From Clostridiaceae bacterium (lineage in GTDB: Bacteria > Bacillota > Clostridia > Saccharofermentanales > DTU023), in the NCBI GenBank assembly GCA_012518795.1, contig JAAYRL010000029.1:20607-84606 (forward strand): a DNA stretch of 64,000 nucleotides, written 5' to 3'. The position numbers and the translations under genes were made by a program. Below the pieces are notes generated by a model that had not been told where the DNA came from, ran no database searches, and worked only from the letters and a program-made list of their open reading frames with translations. Shown piece after piece: positions 31,287 to 39,409 of this stretch. Numbering within the stretch: the stretch's first letter is position 1; each line of letters begins with the position of its first letter.

Positions 31287-31914
31287 AAAAATGCAACCTG
31301 ATTTTTCGAAAAATAACGGCTTACTTTCAGTAATTCTACAAGATTATGATACCGGTCAAGTCCTGATGAACGGTTTTATGAACGAGGAGGCCTACAACTT
31401 AACGGTACGGGATCAAATAGTTTGGTTTTATTCAAGAACACGCCAGGAGTTGTGGAAAAAGGGCGAAACCAGCGGAAATTTTCAGCATGTAATCAGCATG
31501 TGTCTTGATTGTGATCAGGATGCTTTATTAATAAGGGTTAAACCTGACGGGCCGACTTGTCATTTGGGAAATATAAGTTGTTTTGATGATTATTATTTCA
31601 CTTTGGAAGTTTTGGAAAAAACGATTCAAGATCGGATGGAAAATCCGCGAGAAGGTTCTTATACGAAATATTTGATTGAACAGGGTATTGATAAAATTCT
31701 CAAAAAAACCAGTGAGGAAATGACGGAAACGGTAATTGCCGTTAAAAACAAAGATCAAAAAGAAATCATTAATGAAGCCAGCGATTTACTCTATCATTTG
31801 ATTTTACTGCTTAATCAAAGCGGCGTGACTTTAGCGGATATCAAAGATAATCTGGCTGAGCGACATGGTCTTAAACAAAAATATAAACAACGTAAAGATA
31901 TTAAAGAATGGTAA
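31276..31914 (+). CDS. hisI: Bifunctional phosphoribosyl-AMP cyclohydrolase / phosphoribosyl-ATP pyrophosphatase (HisIE)
   Basis: 212 aa. Cyclohydrolase half (ETSGNFQ, CDQDALL, CH.G) followed by the PRA-PH half (EEMTETVIA, ASDLLYHL). Confidence 0.9.
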   Translation: MRFEKMQPDFSKNNGLLSVILQDYDTGQVLMNGFMNEEAYNLTVRDQIVWFYSRTRQELWKKGETSGNFQHVISMCLDCDQDALLIRVKPDGPTCHLGNISCFDDYYFTLEVLEKTIQDRMENPREGSYTKYLIEQGIDKILKKTSEEMTETVIAVKNKDQKEIINEASDLLYHLILLLNQSGVTLADIKDNLAERHGLKQKYKQRKDIKEW

Positions 31915-32104
31915 TAATAGATAGAATATAAGCTGTAGTCGCCTCATCGCAAGTGGAAAAAGAAATCGAACAATGGTAATAATAGATGAATGTAAACTGA
32001 GTAAACAATCAGACTTTTGTTTGATAAAACAACGGTAAATCAGGCTAGCAAATAAATATTTATAAATAAAATTTGAAATGACAATAGAAACAGGAGAAAT
32101 TGTA

Positions 32105-32746
32105 ATGAATGATCAATCTTTATTCTTGAGTGTGCTCAATCGTGGTAAGGCAGAACAGGTTTTGAGCGAAATGAGAATCTTGGGTTTGACGGGCGGTGTA
32201 GTTTTGCTCGGCGAGGGAACTGTTTCCAATAAATTCTTGGAAATTCTCGGTCTGGAGGAAACCCAAAAAGAAGTCATATTTTTACCGATTGAATCAAGAT
32301 TTGAAGATGCTATTCATGAGATGATGCTTGAAAGTTTCAATATAAAGCGTAAAAGGCAAGGAATTGCTTTTTCGATTCCGATCAGTCGTTTCGGTCATTC
32401 GAGTAATCTTTCAGAAAATGAAAGATTTGATCCGCAGTGTTTTGATCATCAATGTATTTTTGTAGTAGTTAATGAAGGAAAAGGCAGAGAAGTTATGCGC
32501 AATGTTCGTCGAATTGGAGAAGTAGGCGGTACGATTATCCATGGACGTGGTGCGGGTGTTCCGGCCGAGTCATTTTTCCCGATCAACATAGAACCGCAAA
32601 AAGACATAGTTATGCTTTTGGTTAAGAATGAAGCGGTTGAACCGATCAAAGAATGCTTAATAACTGAAATGGATTTAGACCAACCGAGCAAAGGAATTAT
32701 TTTTGTATTACCAGTTTCACGTATTACAGGTGCTTATCAAGCATAG
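32105..32746 (+). CDS. Tandem PII-like (two PII-fold domains) soluble protein
   Basis: About 213 aa from the ATG at 32105 (GGAG 8 nt upstream). Two ~95-aa paralogous halves each follow a PII-like pattern: LTGGVVLLGEGT...GIAFSIPISRF and VGGTIIHGRGAG...GIIFVLPVSRI. Confidence 0.6.
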   Translation: MNDQSLFLSVLNRGKAEQVLSEMRILGLTGGVVLLGEGTVSNKFLEILGLEETQKEVIFLPIESRFEDAIHEMMLESFNIKRKRQGIAFSIPISRFGHSSNLSENERFDPQCFDHQCIFVVVNEGKGREVMRNVRRIGEVGGTIIHGRGAGVPAESFFPINIEPQKDIVMLLVKNEAVEPIKECLITEMDLDQPSKGIIFVLPVSRITGAYQA

Positions 32747-32755
32747 GAGGCTTAC

Positions 32756-34627
32756 ATGAATATATTACAATCAAAAACTAAAGAGGTTTCTCAATCTCTT
32801 ATACCGATCGTAATTTTTGTAGCGATCTTGGGCTTGATATTTATTCGGATCGATATTCCGGTTGTACAAAGATTTTTTGTTGGTGCTTTTTTGGTTTTTG
32901 CCGGACTTTCGATTTTTCTCTGGGGTGTAGATCAGAGTATGGAGCCTATCGGCTACCATATGGCACATGAAATAGCGACAAGCAAAAGTTTAATTAAGAC
33001 GATTCTGCTCAGTTTTGCTCTTGGATTTTTAATCACGATTGCTGAACCTGATATTTTAATTCTTGGAGATCAAGTTGAGAGTGCTTCCGGTGGAACCCTG
33101 GATGCCGGTTTCTTAGTAACAATGATTTCAGTAGGTGTCGGTGTACTTATTTCAATTGCTTCAATCAGAATTCTCAGTAATTTTAAATATAATGTGATGA
33201 TGACCTTGGTATATCTGGTAATCTTGGTTTTAGGAACTCAGGTTTCCGAAGAATTTTTGGCTATTTCATTCGATGCCTCAGGAGCAACAACCGGTGCTTT
33301 GACTACGCCGTTTGTTCTGGCAATTTCAATCGGTTTGTCGCGGACGAAAGGCGGGAAAACGGCGGAAGAAGACTCTTTCGGTATGGTAGGTGCAATGAGT
33401 GCCGGACCGATTTTGGCAGTAATGCTAATTTCAGTTCTTACCGGACAACAAAACATTCATGGCGAAACAGCAGAATTTGTTACTTCAACTGAGGTGTGGT
33501 CTCCGATTTTCTCAGCTATGCAACACACTTTTCTTGAATCAATTAAAGCTTTAGCCCCGATTGCAGGTTTATTCTTTGTCTTCAACTTTTTCAAATTTAA
33601 AGTAGAACGTAAAGAAATGATCAGAATTGTTCGCGGTTTAATTTATACAATTCTCGGTTTGACTTTGTTCTTGGTTGGCGCGAATGAAGGATTTATGGAT
33701 ATGGGGCGTATCCTGGGGATGAGGCTTGCGGATAGATATTTTGGCATGCTCCCTATCTTCGGACTTTTATTAGGTATGATGGTTGTACTGGCCGAACCGG
33801 CCGTTCATGTTCTGGGAGAACAAGTTGAGGATGTTACTGCAGGTAATATACCGGTGACAGTTTTGAAAAGCACACTCTCAATAGGAGTTGGAATGGCAAT
33901 TGCTTTATCTATGATCAAAATTATGTCACCGCAAGTTCAACTATGGTACTTTTTGTTACCCGGTTTTGCCATAGCGATTGCACTGTCATATTTTGTTGAT
34001 CCGATCTTTGTAGGTATTGCATTTGATGCCGGCGGAGTAGCATCAGGTCCGATGAGTGCAACCTTTGTTTTGGCATTTGCTCAAGGTGTAGCTGACAGTA
34101 TACCTACAGCCGATGTTTTGCGTGATGGATTCGGTATTATTGCGATGATTGCGATGACGCCGGTTTTAAGCATTATGATTTTGGGTTCGATAAATAAAAT
34201 TCAAACTATGCGTTCAAAGGATCTTCCGCAAGACATTGCTCCGGTTGCCCAAAAGGAAATTTGTGCAGTTAACTCAGATCAAATTATAGGAGAGCAAAAA
34301 GATTTAATTTTTTGTGTTATAGAGCGAGGCTACGCTGAAGATGTGATCAGTTTAGCAAGATCTGCCGGTTCCACCGGTGCGACAATCCTGCATGGTCGTG
34401 ATGCAAGAGCAGGAACCTGGCTCAGCAAATCAATGCGACTTGAACCGGAAAAAGAAGTGCTTTGGTTTTTAGTTGATGCAAATATTACATCAAAAGTCAG
34501 TCAAACTTTGTTAGATGCTTTAAATGAACAAAACAGCCATATTGTCTCAATTTTTGCTTTGCCTGTAACTGACTCTTACGGACTTACTGCCAATGAAAGT
34601 GTGTTTAAAATTACGGAAAAAATATAA
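32756..34627 (+). CDS. Polytopic membrane protein with internal duplication (DUF1538-like x2) fused to a C-terminal PII-like domain
   Basis: 623 aa. Two homologous membrane halves share the block (L/V)AEP(D/A)..(I/V)LG(D/E)QVE. The C-terminal ~100 aa (STGATILHGRDAR...VSIFALPVTDSYG) is paralogous to the domains of the upstream gene. Confidence 0.6.
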   Translation: MNILQSKTKEVSQSLIPIVIFVAILGLIFIRIDIPVVQRFFVGAFLVFAGLSIFLWGVDQSMEPIGYHMAHEIATSKSLIKTILLSFALGFLITIAEPDILILGDQVESASGGTLDAGFLVTMISVGVGVLISIASIRILSNFKYNVMMTLVYLVILVLGTQVSEEFLAISFDASGATTGALTTPFVLAISIGLSRTKGGKTAEEDSFGMVGAMSAGPILAVMLISVLTGQQNIHGETAEFVTSTEVWSPIFSAMQHTFLESIKALAPIAGLFFVFNFFKFKVERKEMIRIVRGLIYTILGLTLFLVGANEGFMDMGRILGMRLADRYFGMLPIFGLLLGMMVVLAEPAVHVLGEQVEDVTAGNIPVTVLKSTLSIGVGMAIALSMIKIMSPQVQLWYFLLPGFAIAIALSYFVDPIFVGIAFDAGGVASGPMSATFVLAFAQGVADSIPTADVLRDGFGIIAMIAMTPVLSIMILGSINKIQTMRSKDLPQDIAPVAQKEICAVNSDQIIGEQKDLIFCVIERGYAEDVISLARSAGSTGATILHGRDARAGTWLSKSMRLEPEKEVLWFLVDANITSKVSQTLLDALNEQNSHIVSIFALPVTDSYGLTANESVFKITEKI

Positions 34628-34642
34628 TTATAGAGACAAAGA

Positions 34643-35614
34643 ATGACGATACAAGAGCAAAATCAAAATGAAATAAATAAAATACAGTTTTTTGAAAAAA
34701 AGAGTGTTTGGCTAACAGCAACTTATATTTGCATCATTCTCTGGGGTAGTGCTTTTCCGGCGATAAAGACCGGCTATAATTTATTTCAAATCGACAATGC
34801 TGCAGCGGATGCCGTACCGTCTTTACTTTTATTTGCCGGTCTTAGGTTTTTTCTGGCAGGCTTATTAATGATTTCGTTCACCGCAATCACTGAAAAAATC
34901 AGCCCGTTTCCGCAAAATAAAGTACAATGGCGTGATTCTTTAATTCTTGCTATACCACAAACAATTTTGCAATACGGTTTTTTCTTTGTTGGTCTTGCTA
35001 ATACTTCCGGAGCGATCGGCTCGATTATGGCTTCAACATCTTCATTTATGTCAGTTATTCTGGCAAGTTTGGTATTTGTTGATGAAAGACTGAATTTTTC
35101 AAAAATAATCGGTTGTATTATCGGTTTTATCGGCGTGATTGTTCTAAATATCAACAGAGATACTACATTGGGCTTTAATTGGCTGGGTGACGGTTTGATG
35201 TTGCTTTCAGCACTTGCAACGGCAATCGGGACATTGATCAATAAGATGTTTGTAAACCGTAATCATCCACGCTTATTGAGTGGCTGGAATTTCATTTTTG
35301 GCAGTTCAGTTTTAATTCTTACCGGTTTAAGTCTTGGCGGTTCCTTGTATCCGCGTGACAATACTGCCTGGCTGATATTGATTTATTTGAGTGCTTTAAG
35401 TGCAATTGCTTTCGCATTATGGTCAACAATGTTAAAATATCATTCTGTTTCAAAATTGAGTATGTTTAAGAGTTTGATTCCAATAGTAGGAACGATCGGT
35501 TCAGCCATATTTTTGAAAGAAAATATTTTGCAAATAAACTTAATAGTCGCATTGCTATTAGTAGTGGCGGGAATCGGTTTAGTAAATTATAATAAAAGTG
35601 GAGATGAAAAATGA
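34643..35614 (+). CDS. DMT-superfamily (EamA-type) transporter
   Basis: 323 aa. About 10 TM helices in two EamA-like halves. Its stop overlaps the start of the aspartokinase gene (ATGA). Confidence 0.75.
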   Translation: MTIQEQNQNEINKIQFFEKKSVWLTATYICIILWGSAFPAIKTGYNLFQIDNAAADAVPSLLLFAGLRFFLAGLLMISFTAITEKISPFPQNKVQWRDSLILAIPQTILQYGFFFVGLANTSGAIGSIMASTSSFMSVILASLVFVDERLNFSKIIGCIIGFIGVIVLNINRDTTLGFNWLGDGLMLLSALATAIGTLINKMFVNRNHPRLLSGWNFIFGSSVLILTGLSLGGSLYPRDNTAWLILIYLSALSAIAFALWSTMLKYHSVSKLSMFKSLIPIVGTIGSAIFLKENILQINLIVALLLVVAGIGLVNYNKSGDEK

Positions 35615-36948
35615 AAGTTACAAAGTTTGGCGGAACATCGTGTGCTGATGCTTCCCAGTTTAAAAAAGTAAAATCAATTATTACAGCAGACAGTGAAAGA
35701 AAGATTGTGATTGTATCTGCACCCGGTAAACGCTTTGCTGATGATCATAAAATTACTGATATGCTATATTTATGTCATCAATTGATGGAAATCGGAATTG
35801 GTGGTGAAGAAGTTTTTACTTCAATTAAAAAACGCTTTTTGGAGATTCAAAACTCTCTGAATTTAGCAATTGATCTTGAACCTGAATTGGATGAAGTTGA
35901 ACAAAAGCTGATTGCGGGAGCATCCAGAGATTACGCCGCCAGCCGTGGTGAATATTTCTCAGCGAAATTGATGGCGGAATATCTCGGTTATCAATTTCTA
36001 GATGCTGCAGATATAATTCGTTTTGATCAAAATGGAAGATATGATGAGAATATTACTCGCATATTAATTAAAGAAAACATTGTGAAAGATGGTTGTTTCG
36101 TAATTCCGGGATTCTACGGTGCTCAAGAGAACGGTTCAATTGTCACTTTTTCCAGAGGCGGTTCGGATATTACCGGCTCGATTGTAGCTTCTGCACTTTC
36201 TGTTGAAAAATATGAAAATTGGACGGATGTTTCAGGTTTTCTGGCAGCTGACCCTAAAATTGTGGATAATCCGATGCCTTTGCATATTGTAACCTATGAT
36301 GAATTGCGTGAATTGAGTTATATGGGTGCTGCAGTTTTGCATCATGAGGCTATATTCCCTGCCAGACAAAGAGGTATTCCGATTCATATCCTAAATACCA
36401 ATGCACCTGATGAGCCCGGGACGCTGATTTTACCGAAAGCAAAAAGAACCAAAGAAGATCCGATTCTGACCGGTGTGGCCGGTGTGAAAGATTTTATGGT
36501 AATAAATGTTGAAAAATATCGGATGACCGAAGATTTAAGTTTCTTTCGTAAATTATGCTCGGTTTTTGAAACTAACGGAATTCAAATCCACCATATGCCA
36601 TCCTCGATAGATACGGTATCGTTAATTGTGCGTGAAGATAGTATGCAAGGCAAAGAAAGAAAGATCTTGGAAGAAATCGACATATATTGTTCACCGGATC
36701 GCATCGATATAACGCCAGGTTTGGCATTGTTAGCAGTTGTGGGTGAGAATATGGCAATGCGTGCCGGTGTTTCAGCGAAAGTATTCGGAGCTTTAGCAAA
36801 AGCAGGAATAAATATTCGTATGATTTCTCAAGGATCAAGTGAATTTAACATTATACTAGGTATTGCGAACAATGATTTTGAAAAAGCAGTATCAACAATT
36901 TATGATGAATTCTTCAAACAACCTCTCGTCAAACCTGCGAGTAGTTAA
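35611..36948 (+). CDS. Aspartate kinase (long, YclM/LysC-like, C-terminal ACT domains)
   Basis: 445 aa. MKVTKFGGTSCA, FSRGGSDITG, and a C-terminal ACT-like region (LAVVGENM...RMISQGSSE). Confidence 0.85.
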   Translation: MKVTKFGGTSCADASQFKKVKSIITADSERKIVIVSAPGKRFADDHKITDMLYLCHQLMEIGIGGEEVFTSIKKRFLEIQNSLNLAIDLEPELDEVEQKLIAGASRDYAASRGEYFSAKLMAEYLGYQFLDAADIIRFDQNGRYDENITRILIKENIVKDGCFVIPGFYGAQENGSIVTFSRGGSDITGSIVASALSVEKYENWTDVSGFLAADPKIVDNPMPLHIVTYDELRELSYMGAAVLHHEAIFPARQRGIPIHILNTNAPDEPGTLILPKAKRTKEDPILTGVAGVKDFMVINVEKYRMTEDLSFFRKLCSVFETNGIQIHHMPSSIDTVSLIVREDSMQGKERKILEEIDIYCSPDRIDITPGLALLAVVGENMAMRAGVSAKVFGALAKAGINIRMISQGSSEFNIILGIANNDFEKAVSTIYDEFFKQPLVKPASS

Positions 36949-36966
36949 CTAATATACGAGGGAAAA

Positions 36967-38418
36967 ATGAAATATCACAGTACCAGAAATAATAATGATT
37001 TATTTTCACCTTCCGAGGCGGTCTTGCAAGGTCTGGCACCGGATGGCGGACTTTTTGTGCCACAAGAATTACCGAAAGTTGATTTTGCTACATGGATCGG
37101 TTTAGATTATCAGACAATTGCCAAAAGAATTTTCAAAATATTTTTTTCGGATTTGTCCGATCAGATTATTGCGGAAATAGTCAGTGCAGCATATGGTGAT
37201 AATTTTGATGATCCTCAAATTGTTCCGGTTCACCTAATTGATGATCAAATCGGTTTTTTAGAATTATGGCATGGACCGACTCTGGCTTTTAAAGATTTGG
37301 CTCTCCAGTTTTTACCGCATTTGATGCAGGCTGCTAAGAAACAGCTCCATTTTGAACAGGATATTTTAATTCTGACAGCAACTTCAGGTGATACGGGCAA
37401 AGCCGCAATGGAGGGTTTTGCCGGTGTAGAGCATTTTAAAGTAATTGTTTTTTATCCGCATAACGGAGTTAGTTCTTTCCAGAAAAGACAGATGTTATGT
37501 CGTGATTATGATAATGTGCGAGCTATTGCTTTGCGAGGGGATTTCGACGATTGCCAACGTGGGGTAAAACAGTTATTTTCCGATCAGGAATTTGCCGGTG
37601 AAGCAGCAACAGCAGGCTATGCCTTATCTTCTGCCAATTCAATCAATATCGGACGTCTGATTCCCCAAATGATTTACTACATCAATAGTTATTTACAGAT
37701 GGTTACAGCCAATTGTTTATCATATGGCGAGCCGATATCAATCGTAGTTCCAACCGGCAATTTCGGCAACATTTTAGCAGCTTGTTATGCCAAAGCAATG
37801 GGATTGCCTTTGGGTAGAATTCATTTAGCAGCTAATCAAAATAATGTTTTGGCTGATTTTTTGCAAACCGGTATTTATGACAGTAATCGCCCTTTAGTCA
37901 AAACTTCATCGCCTTCAATGGATATTCTGGTTGCCAGTAATTTAGAACGATATTTGTATTTAAAAAAACCGGATAGTGAATGGCTGAAGTCTTTAATGCG
38001 TGATTTGAATGTTTCCGGTAAATTTCAAATAGATCCGGAGATATTAGATTTAACGGCTTCTTGGACAGATGAAAATGAAACTTCAATTGCGATTAATCAG
38101 GTTTATCAGTCATATGAATATTTGATTGATCCACATACCGCTGTTGCCTATTCAGCGATAGCTAAAGCAGGTTTAACCGGTTTAACCTTAGTAGCCAGCA
38201 CTGCCAGTCCATATAAGTTTATGGAAAAAATATTATCATCTTTAGACAAAGAAATTCCGCCGGATGATAGGCAATCAATTGAAACTATTGCTGAATTATC
38301 CGGGCAGGGAATTCCTCAAACCGTCAGTAAATTATGGCGATTGCCTCAAGATAAGGAGATAGTAATTTCAGCGGATCAAATGGCAAAAGCAATATTTGAC
38401 AATATTAAAAGGAAATAG
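36967..38418 (+). CDS. thrC: Threonine synthase (long type)
   Basis: 483 aa. HSTRN...GLAPDGGLFVP, PTLAFKD (PLP lysine), SGDTG. Confidence 0.9.
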   Translation: MKYHSTRNNNDLFSPSEAVLQGLAPDGGLFVPQELPKVDFATWIGLDYQTIAKRIFKIFFSDLSDQIIAEIVSAAYGDNFDDPQIVPVHLIDDQIGFLELWHGPTLAFKDLALQFLPHLMQAAKKQLHFEQDILILTATSGDTGKAAMEGFAGVEHFKVIVFYPHNGVSSFQKRQMLCRDYDNVRAIALRGDFDDCQRGVKQLFSDQEFAGEAATAGYALSSANSINIGRLIPQMIYYINSYLQMVTANCLSYGEPISIVVPTGNFGNILAACYAKAMGLPLGRIHLAANQNNVLADFLQTGIYDSNRPLVKTSSPSMDILVASNLERYLYLKKPDSEWLKSLMRDLNVSGKFQIDPEILDLTASWTDENETSIAINQVYQSYEYLIDPHTAVAYSAIAKAGLTGLTLVASTASPYKFMEKILSSLDKEIPPDDRQSIETIAELSGQGIPQTVSKLWRLPQDKEIVISADQMAKAIFDNIKRK

Positions 38419-38419
38419 A

Positions 38420-39409
38420 ATGAAACAGTATACAGTAAGAGTCCCTGCCACCAGTGCGAATATAGGTCCCGGTTTTGATTGTTTAGGTATAGCATTTAAA
38501 TTATATAATTGGTTTACTTTCACTTGGGAAAATCCTGAACATCCGGTAAGTTATGAAGAACAGATCAAATGGCTTGCAACAAGAACCGCGTCTCAAATGC
38601 CGATGCTCGAAGCATATGTACAATATTGCCGTCTCTTCGAGGTGGAATTACCGATTCCAACTAAAGTTGAATGTATCAGGAGTGATGTTCCGGTAGCCAA
38701 AGGTCTGGGTTCTTCTGCAACTTGTTATGTTGCAGGTGCAGGAGCTGCACAATGGATTGCTGAACAACTTTATTCCGCCAATCAAATTAAATCTGATTAT
38801 AATACTTACAATGTGAATCCATTTTCAAAAGATGCGATTTTAGCGATTGCTTCAACAATTGAGCAACATCCGGATAATCTGAGTCCTGCTGTTTTTGGCG
38901 GTTTGCAACTGGCTGCAATTCTGGATTCAGATAATTTGCCGCAAGTAGTTACGCAAGAACTAAATGTGAGTCCGGAAGTTAATTTTATTATCAGCATTCC
39001 TAATTTTAGTTTAAAAACGGCTAAAGCCAGGGGTGTTTTGCCTGCAGAAGTAGCACGTGCCGATGCAATCTTCAATATCAGAGCATTAGGTTATTTACTT
39101 AAAGGTATGTCCGATGCCAACCATGATTTATTGAGTTTAGGTTTGCAAGATAAATTACATCAGCCTTATCGGGCAGGTTTAATTCCTAATTTTTATGAAA
39201 TACTGAATGTTGGAACCAAATCCGGTGCGTGCGGTAGCGTTCTTTCGGGTGCAGGACCGTCAATTTTGACTATAACCAGTAACTCGCAAAATAATGCCTT
39301 GCAAATAAGAAATAGTATTCAAAGCTGCTTAGGCAATACTTGGGAAGTCAAAATTCTTGAACTTGATCATAAAGGTATGGTTGGGTATGAAGGAAAAACA
39401 ACATTTTGA
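38420..39409 (+). CDS. thrB: Homoserine kinase
   Basis: VPATSANIGPGFD and PVAKGLGSSATC (GHMP motif). The ATG at 38420 has an SD-like aaaagga upstream and is preferred over the listed 38396. Confidence 0.85.
   Translation: MKQYTVRVPATSANIGPGFDCLGIAFKLYNWFTFTWENPEHPVSYEEQIKWLATRTASQMPMLEAYVQYCRLFEVELPIPTKVECIRSDVPVAKGLGSSATCYVAGAGAAQWIAEQLYSANQIKSDYNTYNVNPFSKDAILAIASTIEQHPDNLSPAVFGGLQLAAILDSDNLPQVVTQELNVSPEVNFIISIPNFSLKTAKARGVLPAEVARADAIFNIRALGYLLKGMSDANHDLLSLGLQDKLHQPYRAGLIPNFYEILNVGTKSGACGSVLSGAGPSILTITSNSQNNALQIRNSIQSCLGNTWEVKILELDHKGMVGYEGKTTF

What the first reader, a model, noticed from the sequence alone, without database searches (positions are those of the whole stretch)
32105..34627. 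DUF1538-like duplicated membrane protein associated with three paralogous PII-like domains (2 soluble + 1 fused)
Seen: the upstream 213-aa protein is two tandem PII-like domains (..LTGGVVLLGEGT..FSIPISRF.. and ..VGGTIIHGRGAG..FVLPVSRI..). The 623-aa membrane protein has two homologous polytopic halves, each with an (L/V)AEP..(I/V)LG(D/E)QVE block. It ends in a third domain of the same type (..STGATILHGRDAR..FALPVTDSYG). Established: PII proteins act as trimers and commonly gate transporters (AmtB-GlnK, SbtA-SbtB). PII-like proteins such as DarA/PstA bind c-di-AMP. DUF1538 proteins are uncharacterised and, as I recall, often neighbour PII-family genes. Inference: a 2+1 arrangement could assemble a pseudo-trimeric PII module tethered to its own transporter. 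That would be a self-contained ligand-gated transport system of unknown substrate. The operon continues into a DMT exporter and threonine-pathway genes.
Basis: partly seen in the sequence, partly recalled or inferred. Interest (0 to 1): 0.6.

Follow-up and report, generated by a model that had tools for sequence, protein, structure and literature searches.

The report
DUF1538 transporter with three-part PII sensor
Two adjacent genes encode a membrane transporter from a barely studied family together with three unlike copies of the small PII sensor domain. Two copies sit on a soluble partner and one is fused to the transporter, so this looks like a transporter with its own lopsided metabolic switch, a widespread pairing I found described in no paper.

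Summary
ORF1 (32105-32746, 213 aa) is two PII-like modules. ORF2 (32756-34627, 623 aa) is two DUF1538 repeats plus a third PII-like module on a flexible tether.

- **Homology:** the three modules match each other (BLASTP E 1e-11 to 1e-13) and are modelled with the PII fold (Foldseek prob 1.00 to GlnK/PII chains).
- **Selection:** all three are under purifying selection (dN/dS 0.06-0.13).
- **Conservation:** 118 of the 120 best ORF2 homologues have the same architecture. The tandem gene lies directly upstream in 17 of 17 intact loci, so the fused domain is not an accident.
- **Known family:** DUF1538 is not wholly uncharacterised. UmpAB of Halomonas is a Na+(Li+,K+)/H+ antiporter, but ORF2 scores far below the orthologue cut-offs.
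- **Module number:** almost every DUF1538 pair sampled has PII-like modules next door, usually two. A third module arose at least three times, in three layouts: a 1-2-3 chain, 1-2 plus a free 3, and 1-2 plus a transporter-fused 3 (this window).
- **Packing:** a single-chain triple is modelled as one compact body (pTM 0.84).

The 2+1 pseudo-trimer is therefore plausible (about 50%) but not shown, because no multimer tool or model coordinates were available. Ligand and substrate are unknown, and canonical ATP/2-oxoglutarate residues are not kept. The link to the DMT and threonine genes is local to this lineage.

The parts
32092..32096 (+). Shine-Dalgarno (AGGAG) for ORF1, 8 nt before ATG 32105
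   Evidence: Read directly from the sequence. It supports the 213-aa start over the 222-aa ORF listed.
32105..32746 (+). ORF1: soluble tandem PII-like protein, 213 aa, stop TAG
   Evidence: 198 homologues of 204-260 aa; 119 of the best 120 have two modules. It lies directly upstream of the transporter in 17 of 17 intact loci.
32105..32422 (+). Module d1 (type 1), residues 1-106. Own conserved loop motif LGEGTxxN(K/R)xLxILGLxETQKE; B-loop reduced to R-x-G-I-A-F.
   Evidence: No Pfam hit, but BLASTP E 3e-12 to d2. Modelled as beta-alpha-beta-beta-alpha-beta. Its clade groups with module 1 of tandem and triple partners.
32441..32743 (+). Module d2 (type 2), residues 113-213. The most PII-like module: HGRGAGVP...EPQKD...PSKGIIFVLPVSR.
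   Evidence: PF00543 at 31.1 bits against a cut-off of 25. It is the only PF00543 hit in the whole 1.87-Mb genome. Aligned to GlnK1 and GlnB.
32744..32750 (+). TAGGAGG: ORF1's stop codon embedded in the Shine-Dalgarno sequence of ORF2 (translational coupling). ORF1 and ORF2 are in the same frame.
   Evidence: The same TAG and frame occur in L001, L002, L004, L006 and L007.
32756..34627 (+). ORF2: fused DUF1538 x2 membrane protein with a C-terminal PII-like module, 623 aa
   Evidence: 7389 hits at E<=1e-5. 118 of the best 120 homologues are DUF-DUF-PII.
32807..33436 (+). DUF1538 repeat 1 (residues 18-227). Conserved acidic and polar residues sit at helix breaks: A96-E97-P98-D99, Q106, F172-D173-x-S-G-A-T-T-G.
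   Evidence: Pfam E 2.8e-59. Helix breaks from the AF2 model. At least 95% conserved in 73 homologues.
33560..34189 (+). DUF1538 repeat 2 (residues 269-478). Holds E347-P348, Q356 and D424-A-G-G-V-A-S-G-P.
   Evidence: Pfam E 1.3e-65. 23-25% identical to repeat 1, E 1e-20. Conservation.
34217..34300 (+). Tether between the last membrane helix and module d3 (about residues 488-515)
   Evidence: Largely low confidence in the model: pLDDT below 50 at fusion residues 705-717, block means 45-48. Poorly conserved (consensus).
34301..34609 (+). Module d3 (derived from type 2), residues 516-618. Motif HGRDARxGTWLS...E-x-E-K-E; the B-loop glycines are lost (NSHIVSIFALPV).
   Evidence: Pfam P-II only E 0.17, but BLASTP E 3e-13 to d2. 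PII-type fold in the model. Forms one clade, SH-aLRT 91-95. dN/dS 0.07-0.11.

Best explanation
A self-contained two-gene module.

The transporter: ORF2 is a secondary transporter of the DUF1538/UmpAB family, with the two homologous subunits fused into one chain. It probably moves a cation against protons. Conserved Glu, Asp and Gln residues sit at breaks in membrane helices in both repeats.

The sensor: activity is probably controlled by a dedicated PII-like sensor made of three non-identical modules. Types 1 and 2 form the soluble ORF1. A degenerate type-2 derivative hangs from the transporter's C-terminus on a roughly 28-residue tether that is largely low-confidence in the model.

Most likely assembly: the three modules form one asymmetric PII-type pseudo-trimer on the cytoplasmic face. 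Their three different, individually conserved T-loop-like loops would contact non-equivalent surfaces of the transporter. An unknown small ligand would switch transport on or off, as GlnK does for AmtB and SbtB does for SbtA.

Shown here: the domain identities, their paralogy, the conservation of the pairing, purifying selection, and the recurrence of three-module sets.

Inferred: regulation, the pseudo-trimer assembly, the cation substrate and the existence of a ligand.
For: - **Domains and folds:**
- **Coupling:** a 9-nt gap with the stop codon inside the Shine-Dalgarno sequence.
- **Pairing conserved:** the upstream tandem accompanies every intact DUF-DUF-PII gene (17 of 17). 118 of the 120 best homologues keep the fused module.
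- **Family-wide link:** 36 of 40 sampled DUF1538 contexts in the phylum carry two adjacent PII-like modules and 4 carry one per transporter pair.
- **Selection:** dN/dS is 0.056, 0.064 and 0.107 for d1, d2 and d3, against 0.056 for the membrane part.
- **Three modules recur in three layouts:** single-chain 1-2-3 directly after a roughly 500-aa DUF-DUF (4 of 4 checked); tandem plus a free 100-106-aa module; and this window's layout.
- **Repeated gain:** the transporter tree puts these layouts in at least three separate clades, with chain and free forms interchanging inside one starred clade. No case with four modules was seen.
- **Compact triple:** the single-chain triple is modelled as one confident body (pTM 0.84, mean pLDDT 82.9).
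- **Shared degeneracy:** third modules in this window's layout, in the free form and in several chain forms all lack the B-loop glycines.
- **Distinct loops:** each module type has its own conserved loop motif.
- **Precedents:** UmpAB shows antiport activity (PMC5484666). NifI1,2 is a 2:1 PII heterotrimer (PMC12439982).
Against: - **Two modules are the norm:** most DUF1538 systems have only two modules, and no third is found elsewhere in 9 of 12 such genomes. A closed trimer of three unlike modules is therefore not how the family usually works.
- **Weak fusion model:** the read-through fusion of this window's own proteins reached only pTM 0.59. I could not see coordinates or PAE, so trimer-like geometry is unverified even for the pTM 0.84 triple.
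- **Ligand residues not kept:** the canonical PII ligand residues R38, Q39, K90, R101 and R103 and the T-loop Tyr51 are replaced.
- **Not an UmpAB orthologue:** ORF2 scores 157 and 140 bits against UmpA/UmpB cut-offs of 490 and 500, so the substrate is a guess.
- **No fold relative:** no solved structure resembles the membrane domain.
Confidence: 0.55

Rival explanations
1. Classical homotrimeric rings. The transporter is a trimer, like AmtB or SbtA. Each module type forms its own homotrimer (d1x3, d2x3, d3x3), so three ORF1 and three ORF2 chains build a C3-symmetric assembly with stacked or adjacent PII-like rings.
For: - Tandem-only systems are the majority, and they can close PII-type trimers only this way.
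- Known PII-transporter complexes are trimer on trimer (established knowledge: GlnK-AmtB, SbtB-SbtA).
- The d3 tether is long and largely low-confidence, so three tethered modules could meet.
Against: - UmpAB was reported as a hetero-dimer, not a trimer of dimers (PMC5484666).
- d3, the free third modules and several chain third modules have lost the B-loop glycines. That is easier to tolerate in a mixed ring than in a ring made only of that module.
- AF2 packs three modules of one chain into one confident body (pTM 0.84).
- A third module was gained repeatedly, and never a fourth.
Confidence: 0.2
2. No common ring. d3 is an anchoring or auto-inhibitory domain that docks on the membrane domain by itself or recruits ORF1. 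The tandem acts as a separate two-lobed sensor, so the modules work as independent ferredoxin-like ligand-binding units rather than a PII-type trimer.
For: - The fusion model reached only pTM 0.59.
- Family members work with one, two or three modules.
- Canonical inter-subunit nucleotide-site residues are not kept.
Against: - The modules keep PII core features, including the G-x-T, G-x-G and G89/F92 equivalents. They match PII chains better than ACT or other ferredoxin-like repeats, which align only at rmsd 11-18 A.
- The d1-d2 linker is ordered in the model, with pLDDT about 80.
Confidence: 0.15
3. The PII-like modules are not regulators. They are part of the transport machinery, for example a cytoplasmic cation- or substrate-binding cap, as proposed for CutA-type PII-like proteins.
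For: - The ligand site is non-canonical.
- The coupling is tight, including covalent fusion.
- The genome has no canonical GlnB/GlnK.
Against: - Atopostipes DUF-DUF proteins lack any PII module nearby.
- UmpAB alone conferred antiport in E. coli when expressed from a fragment that held only umpA and umpB (PMC5484666). The modules are therefore dispensable for transport.
Confidence: 0.07

Closest known systems
UmpAB, the two-component Na+(Li+,K+)/H+ antiporter of Halomonas zhaodongensis (DUF1538/PF07556; NCBIfam NF041627 and NF041628; PMC5484666)
   Same: Both have two homologous DUF1538 units working together. Both halves of ORF2 hit PF07556 at E 1e-59 to 1e-65, and both NCBIfam models hit.
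   Different: - The two units are fused into one chain here.
- Scores are about 30% of the equivalog cut-offs (157 against 490; 140 against 500).
- ORF2 carries a C-terminal PII-like module and has a tandem PII partner.
- The UmpAB paper never mentions PII.
GlnK-AmtB and SbtB-SbtA (PII or PII-like proteins that gate a co-encoded transporter through their T-loops)
   Same: A PII-fold protein is co-encoded and translationally coupled with a transporter. Flexible T-loop-like loops are conserved.
   Different: - The transporter family is different.
- The modules are fused in tandem and to the transporter, and they are non-identical.
- The T-loop is 7 residues shorter, without Tyr51 or Arg47-type features.
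- The ATP/2-oxoglutarate residues are not kept.
- There is no SbtB-type C-terminal CGPxGC loop.
[quoted passage not shown]
   Same: It is a PII ring built from paralogous, co-encoded subunits with different T-loops. The best PDB match of the module profile is a 105-aa P-II family protein present 12 times in entry 9p1x (E 4e-5). This may be that NifI1, but I did not verify it.
   Different: - The target here would be a transporter, not nitrogenase.
- There would be three different modules rather than two.
- Two are covalently joined and one is joined to the target.
- There is no nif context.
Single-chain triple PII-like partners, and tandem plus free-single partners, of DUF1538 transporters (for example P0250 in L072; L076; L077 from Anaerocolumna sedimenticola CP048000)
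   Same: Same module types (1, 2 and a type-2-derived third) and the same transporter family.
   Different: The third module is fused to the tandem or is free, and the partner gene lies downstream. In this window it is fused to the transporter and the tandem lies upstream. On the transporter tree these are separate clades.

Membership tests
Canonical PII (GlnB/GlnK, PF00543) | Pfam PF00543 score above the gathering cut-off (25 bits) | tested here: inconclusive
   d2 meets it (31.1 bits as part of ORF1, 29.6 alone). d1 gives no hit. d3 scores 12.7 bits, E 0.17.
Canonical PII (GlnB/GlnK, PF00543) | Beta-alpha-beta-beta-alpha-beta fold with a T-loop between beta2 and beta3 | tested here: met
   The AF2 secondary structure shows this for all three modules, with low-pLDDT loops at 44-50, 155-162 and 769-780. 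Foldseek gives prob 1.00 and TM 0.6-0.78 to GlnK/PII chains.
Canonical PII (GlnB/GlnK, PF00543) | ATP/ADP/2-oxoglutarate ligand residues (R38, Q39, K58, G87, G89, K90, R101, R103) and the T-loop Tyr51 | tested here: not met
   From the alignment to E. coli GlnB and to M. jannaschii GlnK1:
- Equivalents of G27-x-T29, G35-x-G37, P57, G89, F92 and R98 are kept.
- In d2, R38 becomes V, Q39 becomes P, K90 becomes I, R101 becomes G and R103 becomes Y.
- The conserved Lys lies one column after K58.
- The T-loop is 7 residues shorter, with Phe at the Tyr51 column.
- d3 also lacks G87 and G89.
Canonical PII (GlnB/GlnK, PF00543) | Homotrimer of identical subunits | not testable with these tools
   No multimer prediction and no model coordinates were available.
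DUF1538 / UmpAB antiporter family | PF07556 domain, present as a pair of homologous units | tested here: met
   Two PF07556 matches, E 2.8e-59 and 1.3e-65. The halves are 23-25% identical, E 1e-20.
DUF1538 / UmpAB antiporter family | Orthology to UmpA/UmpB (NCBIfam equivalog cut-offs of 490 and 500 bits) | tested here: not met
   157 and 140 bits.
DUF1538 / UmpAB antiporter family | Na+(Li+,K+)/H+ antiport activity | not testable with these tools
   This needs everted-vesicle or complementation assays (PMC5484666 used E. coli KNabc).
PII-gated transporter systems (GlnK-AmtB, SbtB-SbtA type) | A PII-type gene conserved next to, and co-transcribed with, the transporter gene | tested here: met
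   - 9-nt gap with the stop codon inside the Shine-Dalgarno sequence.
- The tandem lies upstream in 17 of 17 intact 2+1 loci.
- PII-like modules are adjacent in all 40 sampled phylum contexts.
PII-gated transporter systems (GlnK-AmtB, SbtB-SbtA type) | Ligand-dependent T-loop binding that blocks or opens the transporter | not testable with these tools
   Only type-specific conservation of the loops could be shown.
c-di-AMP receptor PII-like proteins (DarA/PstA, PF06153) | Match to the family profile | tested here: not met
   No such hit for any module, even at E up to 10. It is also absent from the PDB profile hits.
Heteromeric PII (NifI1,2 type) | One ring built from paralogous subunits | not testable with these tools
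   Indirect only: three-module sets recur, and a single-chain triple is modelled at pTM 0.84.

The most novel reading that the evidence does not exclude
The module encodes an obligate, fully asymmetric PII pseudo-heterotrimer in which all three positions are permanently different. It is split between a soluble tandem chain and the target transporter itself, so the sensor is both tethered to and completed by its target. Evolution reached the same three-module unit at least three times by different gene fusions. That would make DUF1538 systems a natural series from homotrimeric to single-chain PII sensors, and a second kind of heteromeric PII besides NifI1,2.
Probability: 0.45. Interest if true: 0.8.

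Novelty: new variant of a known kind. Interest (0 to 1): 0.6.

Why it matters
PII proteins are among the most widespread signal integrators, and they are almost always homotrimers of one gene product. A recent preprint calls NifI1,2 the only known heteromeric PII (PMC12439982).

Here a large, undescribed branch of the superfamily is dedicated to one poorly known transporter family. The module profile finds 3244 representative proteins. The branch comes with one, two or three unlike modules, and in this lineage one module is welded to the target.

If the three modules form one ring, this gives:
- a natural model for how asymmetry in a PII ring is used to read a non-threefold target;
- a handle on the physiological role and regulation of DUF1538 transporters, which occur in about a third of the genomes sampled in this phylum (108 of 301).

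This organism also seems to lack any canonical GlnB/GlnK. These modules are its only PII-type proteins.

Tried and rejected
- **Rfam:** a scan of 28-40 kb at E<=1 found no riboswitch or leader, including in the 190-nt region upstream of ORF1.
- **Promoter and terminator scans:** counts were no better than shuffles.
- **PDB sequence searches:** nothing for the membrane protein.
- **Foldseek, whole model:** only non-credible membrane hits (RND pumps, VcINDY, M-PPase, TM 0.21 or less). The DUF1538 fold stays unassigned.
- **First alignment (A1):** the first MAFFT alignment for the fusion model misplaced the tandem sequences, so I discarded it. A2 replaced it.
- **Read-through trick:** reading through the TAG gave a single-chain ORF1-ORF2 model, but the tool returns no coordinates or PAE. 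Trimer geometry could not be read, and pTM 0.59 is uninformative.
- **Hidden third module:** tandem-only genomes do not hide a third module elsewhere in 9 of 12 cases. One 115-aa hit in G080 (E 2e-12) was not followed up.
- **Shared origin of d3 and chain third modules:** the tree cannot resolve this, because the type-2 clade is a polytomy with only 107 columns.
- **Membrane topology:** positive-inside counting gave contradictory signs, so I dropped it.
- **Pyrrolysine or programmed read-through at the TAG:** rejected. The TAG is explained by the overlapping TAGGAGG, and more distant loci overlap out of frame.
Full report
**What is there**

The window holds a run of same-strand genes: hisB, hisA, hisF and hisIE, a 190-nt gap, then ORF1 (32105-32746), ORF2 (32756-34627), an EamA/DMT gene (34643-35614), an aspartokinase with ACT domains, thrC and thrB.

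- ORF1's real start is the ATG at 32105, which has an AGGAG 8 nt upstream.
- ORF1's TAG stop lies inside TAGGAGG, the ribosome-binding site of ORF2, which starts 9 nt later in the same frame.
- Gaps further downstream are 15, -4, 18 and 1 nt, so co-transcription is likely.
- No Rfam family matches anywhere in 28-40 kb.

**Domains**

- ORF2 has two PF07556 (DUF1538) repeats (E 2.8e-59 and 1.3e-65).
- NCBIfam matches both UmpA and UmpB, the subunits of the Halomonas Na+(Li+,K+)/H+ antiporter. The scores are 157 and 140 bits against equivalog cut-offs of 490 and 500 (PMC5484666). The family is therefore not wholly uncharacterised, but ORF2 is not an orthologue.
- ORF1's second module passes the Pfam P-II cut-off (31.1 against 25 bits). 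The first module and ORF2's C-terminal module do not.
- The three modules are nonetheless clear paralogues: 26-28% identity, BLASTP E 1e-11 to 1e-13, z 16-21 against shuffles.

**Structure prediction of this window's proteins**

ORF1 and ORF2 share a frame, so I translated through the TAG and submitted the 840-residue chain with a 99-row alignment to AlphaFold2.

- Mean pLDDT was 77.7 and pTM 0.59.
- All three modules fold as beta-alpha-beta-beta-alpha-beta, each with a low-confidence loop where PII has its T-loop.
- The d1-d2 linker is ordered (pLDDT about 80).
- The tether to d3 is largely low-confidence, and the artificial junction between the two ORFs is disordered.
- Foldseek matches the modules to GlnK/PII chains (prob 1.00, TM 0.6-0.78, 21-25% identity).
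- Foldseek finds nothing credible for the membrane part. Sequence search of the PDB also finds nothing for it.
- In the model each DUF1538 repeat has two broken helices. Their breaks carry the family's most conserved polar residues: AEPD...Q and FDxSGATTG in repeat 1, AEP...Q and DAGGVASGP in repeat 2. These are at least 95% conserved in 73 homologues. This pattern is typical of ion-coupled carriers; that reading is an inference.

**How PII-like the modules are**

I aligned the modules to E. coli GlnB (sequence from my own knowledge). HMMER independently aligned them to M. jannaschii GlnK1.

- Kept: the equivalents of G27-x-T29, G35-x-G37, P57, G89, F92 and R98.
- Not kept: R38, Q39, K90, R101 and R103, which bind ATP phosphates and 2-oxoglutarate in canonical PII (established knowledge).
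- The loop is 7 residues shorter and has no Tyr51.
- d3 has also lost both B-loop glycines.
- Each module type has its own conserved loop motif across genera.
- The closest solved proteins by profile are archaeal-type PII proteins.
- There is no DarA/PstA match and no SbtB-type C-terminal loop.

The ligand therefore cannot be inferred.

**Conservation of the arrangement**

- The best 120 of 7389 ORF2 homologues cover 94-100% of its length, and 118 of them are DUF-DUF-PII by my HMMs.
- Genome loci come from Saccharofermentanales, Mageeibacillus-like MAGs, Peptoniphilaceae, Kallipyga and Khoudiadiopia, plus three other families of the phylum. In these, every intact DUF-DUF-PII gene has the tandem gene immediately upstream (17 of 17).
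- dN/dS against a close relative is 0.056 (d1), 0.064 (d2), 0.107 (d3) and 0.056 (membrane part). The fused domain is functional, not an accident.
- The own genome (1.87 Mb, 94% complete) has a single DUF1538 locus and no other PF00543 hit, so it seems to lack GlnB/GlnK.

**The family picture**

PF07556 occurs in 108 of 301 genomes sampled across the phylum. I fetched 40 contexts and mapped modules with HMMs built here.

- All 40 have PII-like modules adjacent.
- Most have a downstream tandem. Nine loci have two single-module genes.
- Four loci have one module per transporter pair.
- Only this window's clade has an upstream tandem plus a fused third module.
- Atopostipes (Bacilli) loci, found through the ORF2 search, have DUF-DUF with no module nearby.
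- In 12 two-module genomes, 9 show no further family member anywhere.

**Origin of the third module**

- A tree of the modules separates a type-1 and a type-2 lineage.
- d1 groups with module 1 of other partners.
- d2 and d3 both fall in one starred type-2 clade, and d3 forms a single clade. The alignment has few columns and the inner order is unresolved.

**Independent test of a lead from earlier notes**

- A profile of the modules, searched against 1.84 billion representatives, found 3244 proteins. The best 150 were about 139 tandems and 11 single-chain triples of 304-357 aa.
- Four of four triples checked lie directly after a roughly 500-aa DUF-DUF gene.
- The closest relatives of one triple are tandems followed by a separate 100-106-aa third module, for example in Anaerocolumna sedimenticola.
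- On a tree of the transporter's membrane part, the fused-third-module clade is monophyletic (98). The chain and free forms interchange inside another starred clade, and two more triples sit elsewhere.
- A third module was therefore added at least three times, in three gene layouts. I saw no four-module case.
- The third modules of this window's layout, of the free form and of several chain forms share the loss of the B-loop glycines.

**Does a triple form one body?**

AlphaFold2 on the single-chain triple P0250 gave mean pLDDT 82.9 and pTM 0.84 (37-row alignment, third module only 9 rows deep). Three independently floating domains would not reach this value. Foldseek again matches single modules to PII chains. 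Tandem ferredoxin-like proteins such as ACT repeats align only at rmsd 11-18 A, so the packing is not of that kind. I could not inspect coordinates, so trimer-like geometry remains an inference.

**Reading**

- I hold as well supported that this is a dedicated PII-like partner and transporter module of the UmpAB family.
The main rival is a C3 assembly of homotypic rings.
- The two-module majority shows that three unlike modules is not the family's only solution.
- A heteromeric PII ring has a structural precedent in NifI1,2 (PMC12439982).

**Context claims**

- The EamA gene follows ORF2 only in the closest relatives (L002-L004, L007, L008, L015). L001 has only a remnant, and in L005 the gene lies 4 kb away.
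- EamA is absent after the module in Peptoniphilaceae and Tissierellia loci.
- Another lineage has an acetyltransferase and QueT there instead.
- The conserved unit is the two-gene module. The threonine link is local.

**Literature**

Full-text searches for DUF1538, UmpAB and PF07556 found only the UmpAB paper and papers citing it, none mentioning PII. Searches on PII-like, tandem and pseudo-trimer terms found nothing on this pairing. Subscription journals are not covered.

Earlier notes of this scan describe the same class many times. I used them as leads only. The claims I rely on were re-tested here.

Noticed in passing
window 31907-31922 and 31972-31987: There is an exact 16-nt direct repeat, AATGGTAATAATAGAT. 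The first copy spans the hisIE stop codon and the second lies 65 nt downstream, in the gap before ORF1. It may be a small duplication of the hisIE 3' end. There is no Rfam match.
   Followed up: no
window 32744-32758; L001, L002, L004, L006, L007: ORF1 and ORF2 are in the same frame, separated only by TAG plus 0-3 codons, in this window and five relatives. In the window the TAG is part of the Shine-Dalgarno sequence TAGGAGG. More distant loci overlap out of frame, so I read this as coincidence. Stop read-through would nevertheless give a single chain carrying all three modules.
   Followed up: partly
whole genome G000: The only PF00543 match in the 1.87-Mb, 94%-complete genome is ORF1's second module. 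No canonical GlnB/GlnK was found.
   Followed up: partly
L008 6004-7761: This is the one exception to the pairing. A Mageeibacillus-like MAG has a DUF-DUF-PII gene that lacks its first 33 codons and has no tandem gene upstream. The upstream genes are on the other strand. It could be a deletion, a rearrangement or an assembly join.
   Followed up: partly
L001 7842-8012: In the closest relative, the EamA gene after the module is reduced to a remnant matching only residues 267-323.
   Followed up: no
L053 1605-6106; L051; L052: Some genomes carry two adjacent copies of the whole transporter-plus-PII cassette. Such a tandem array is a plausible starting point for the upstream-tandem plus fused-module layout.
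   Followed up: no
L016, L017, L020 (Atopostipes MAGs): These are fused DUF1538 x2 proteins of 484-492 aa with no PII-like module within 5 kb, even at E up to 10. They are a natural regulator-less comparison group.
   Followed up: partly
L074 5084-7248: A DUF-DUF plus triple-PII pair is followed on the same strand, with small gaps or overlaps, by a 522-aa MgtE_N/CBS-domain protein and a DUF1003 protein. This may hint at divalent-cation or nucleotide sensing in that lineage.
   Followed up: no
G080:C1:201943-202233: A tandem-only genome has an unlinked 115-aa ORF that matches the module profile at E 2e-12. It could be a canonical PII or a detached third module.
   Followed up: no
window 34643-39409: The EamA/DMT gene's stop overlaps the aspartokinase start by 4 nt, and thrC and thrB follow. 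DMT members such as RhtA export threonine and homoserine (my own knowledge), so this block may be a biosynthesis-plus-exporter unit, independent of the PII module.
   Followed up: no
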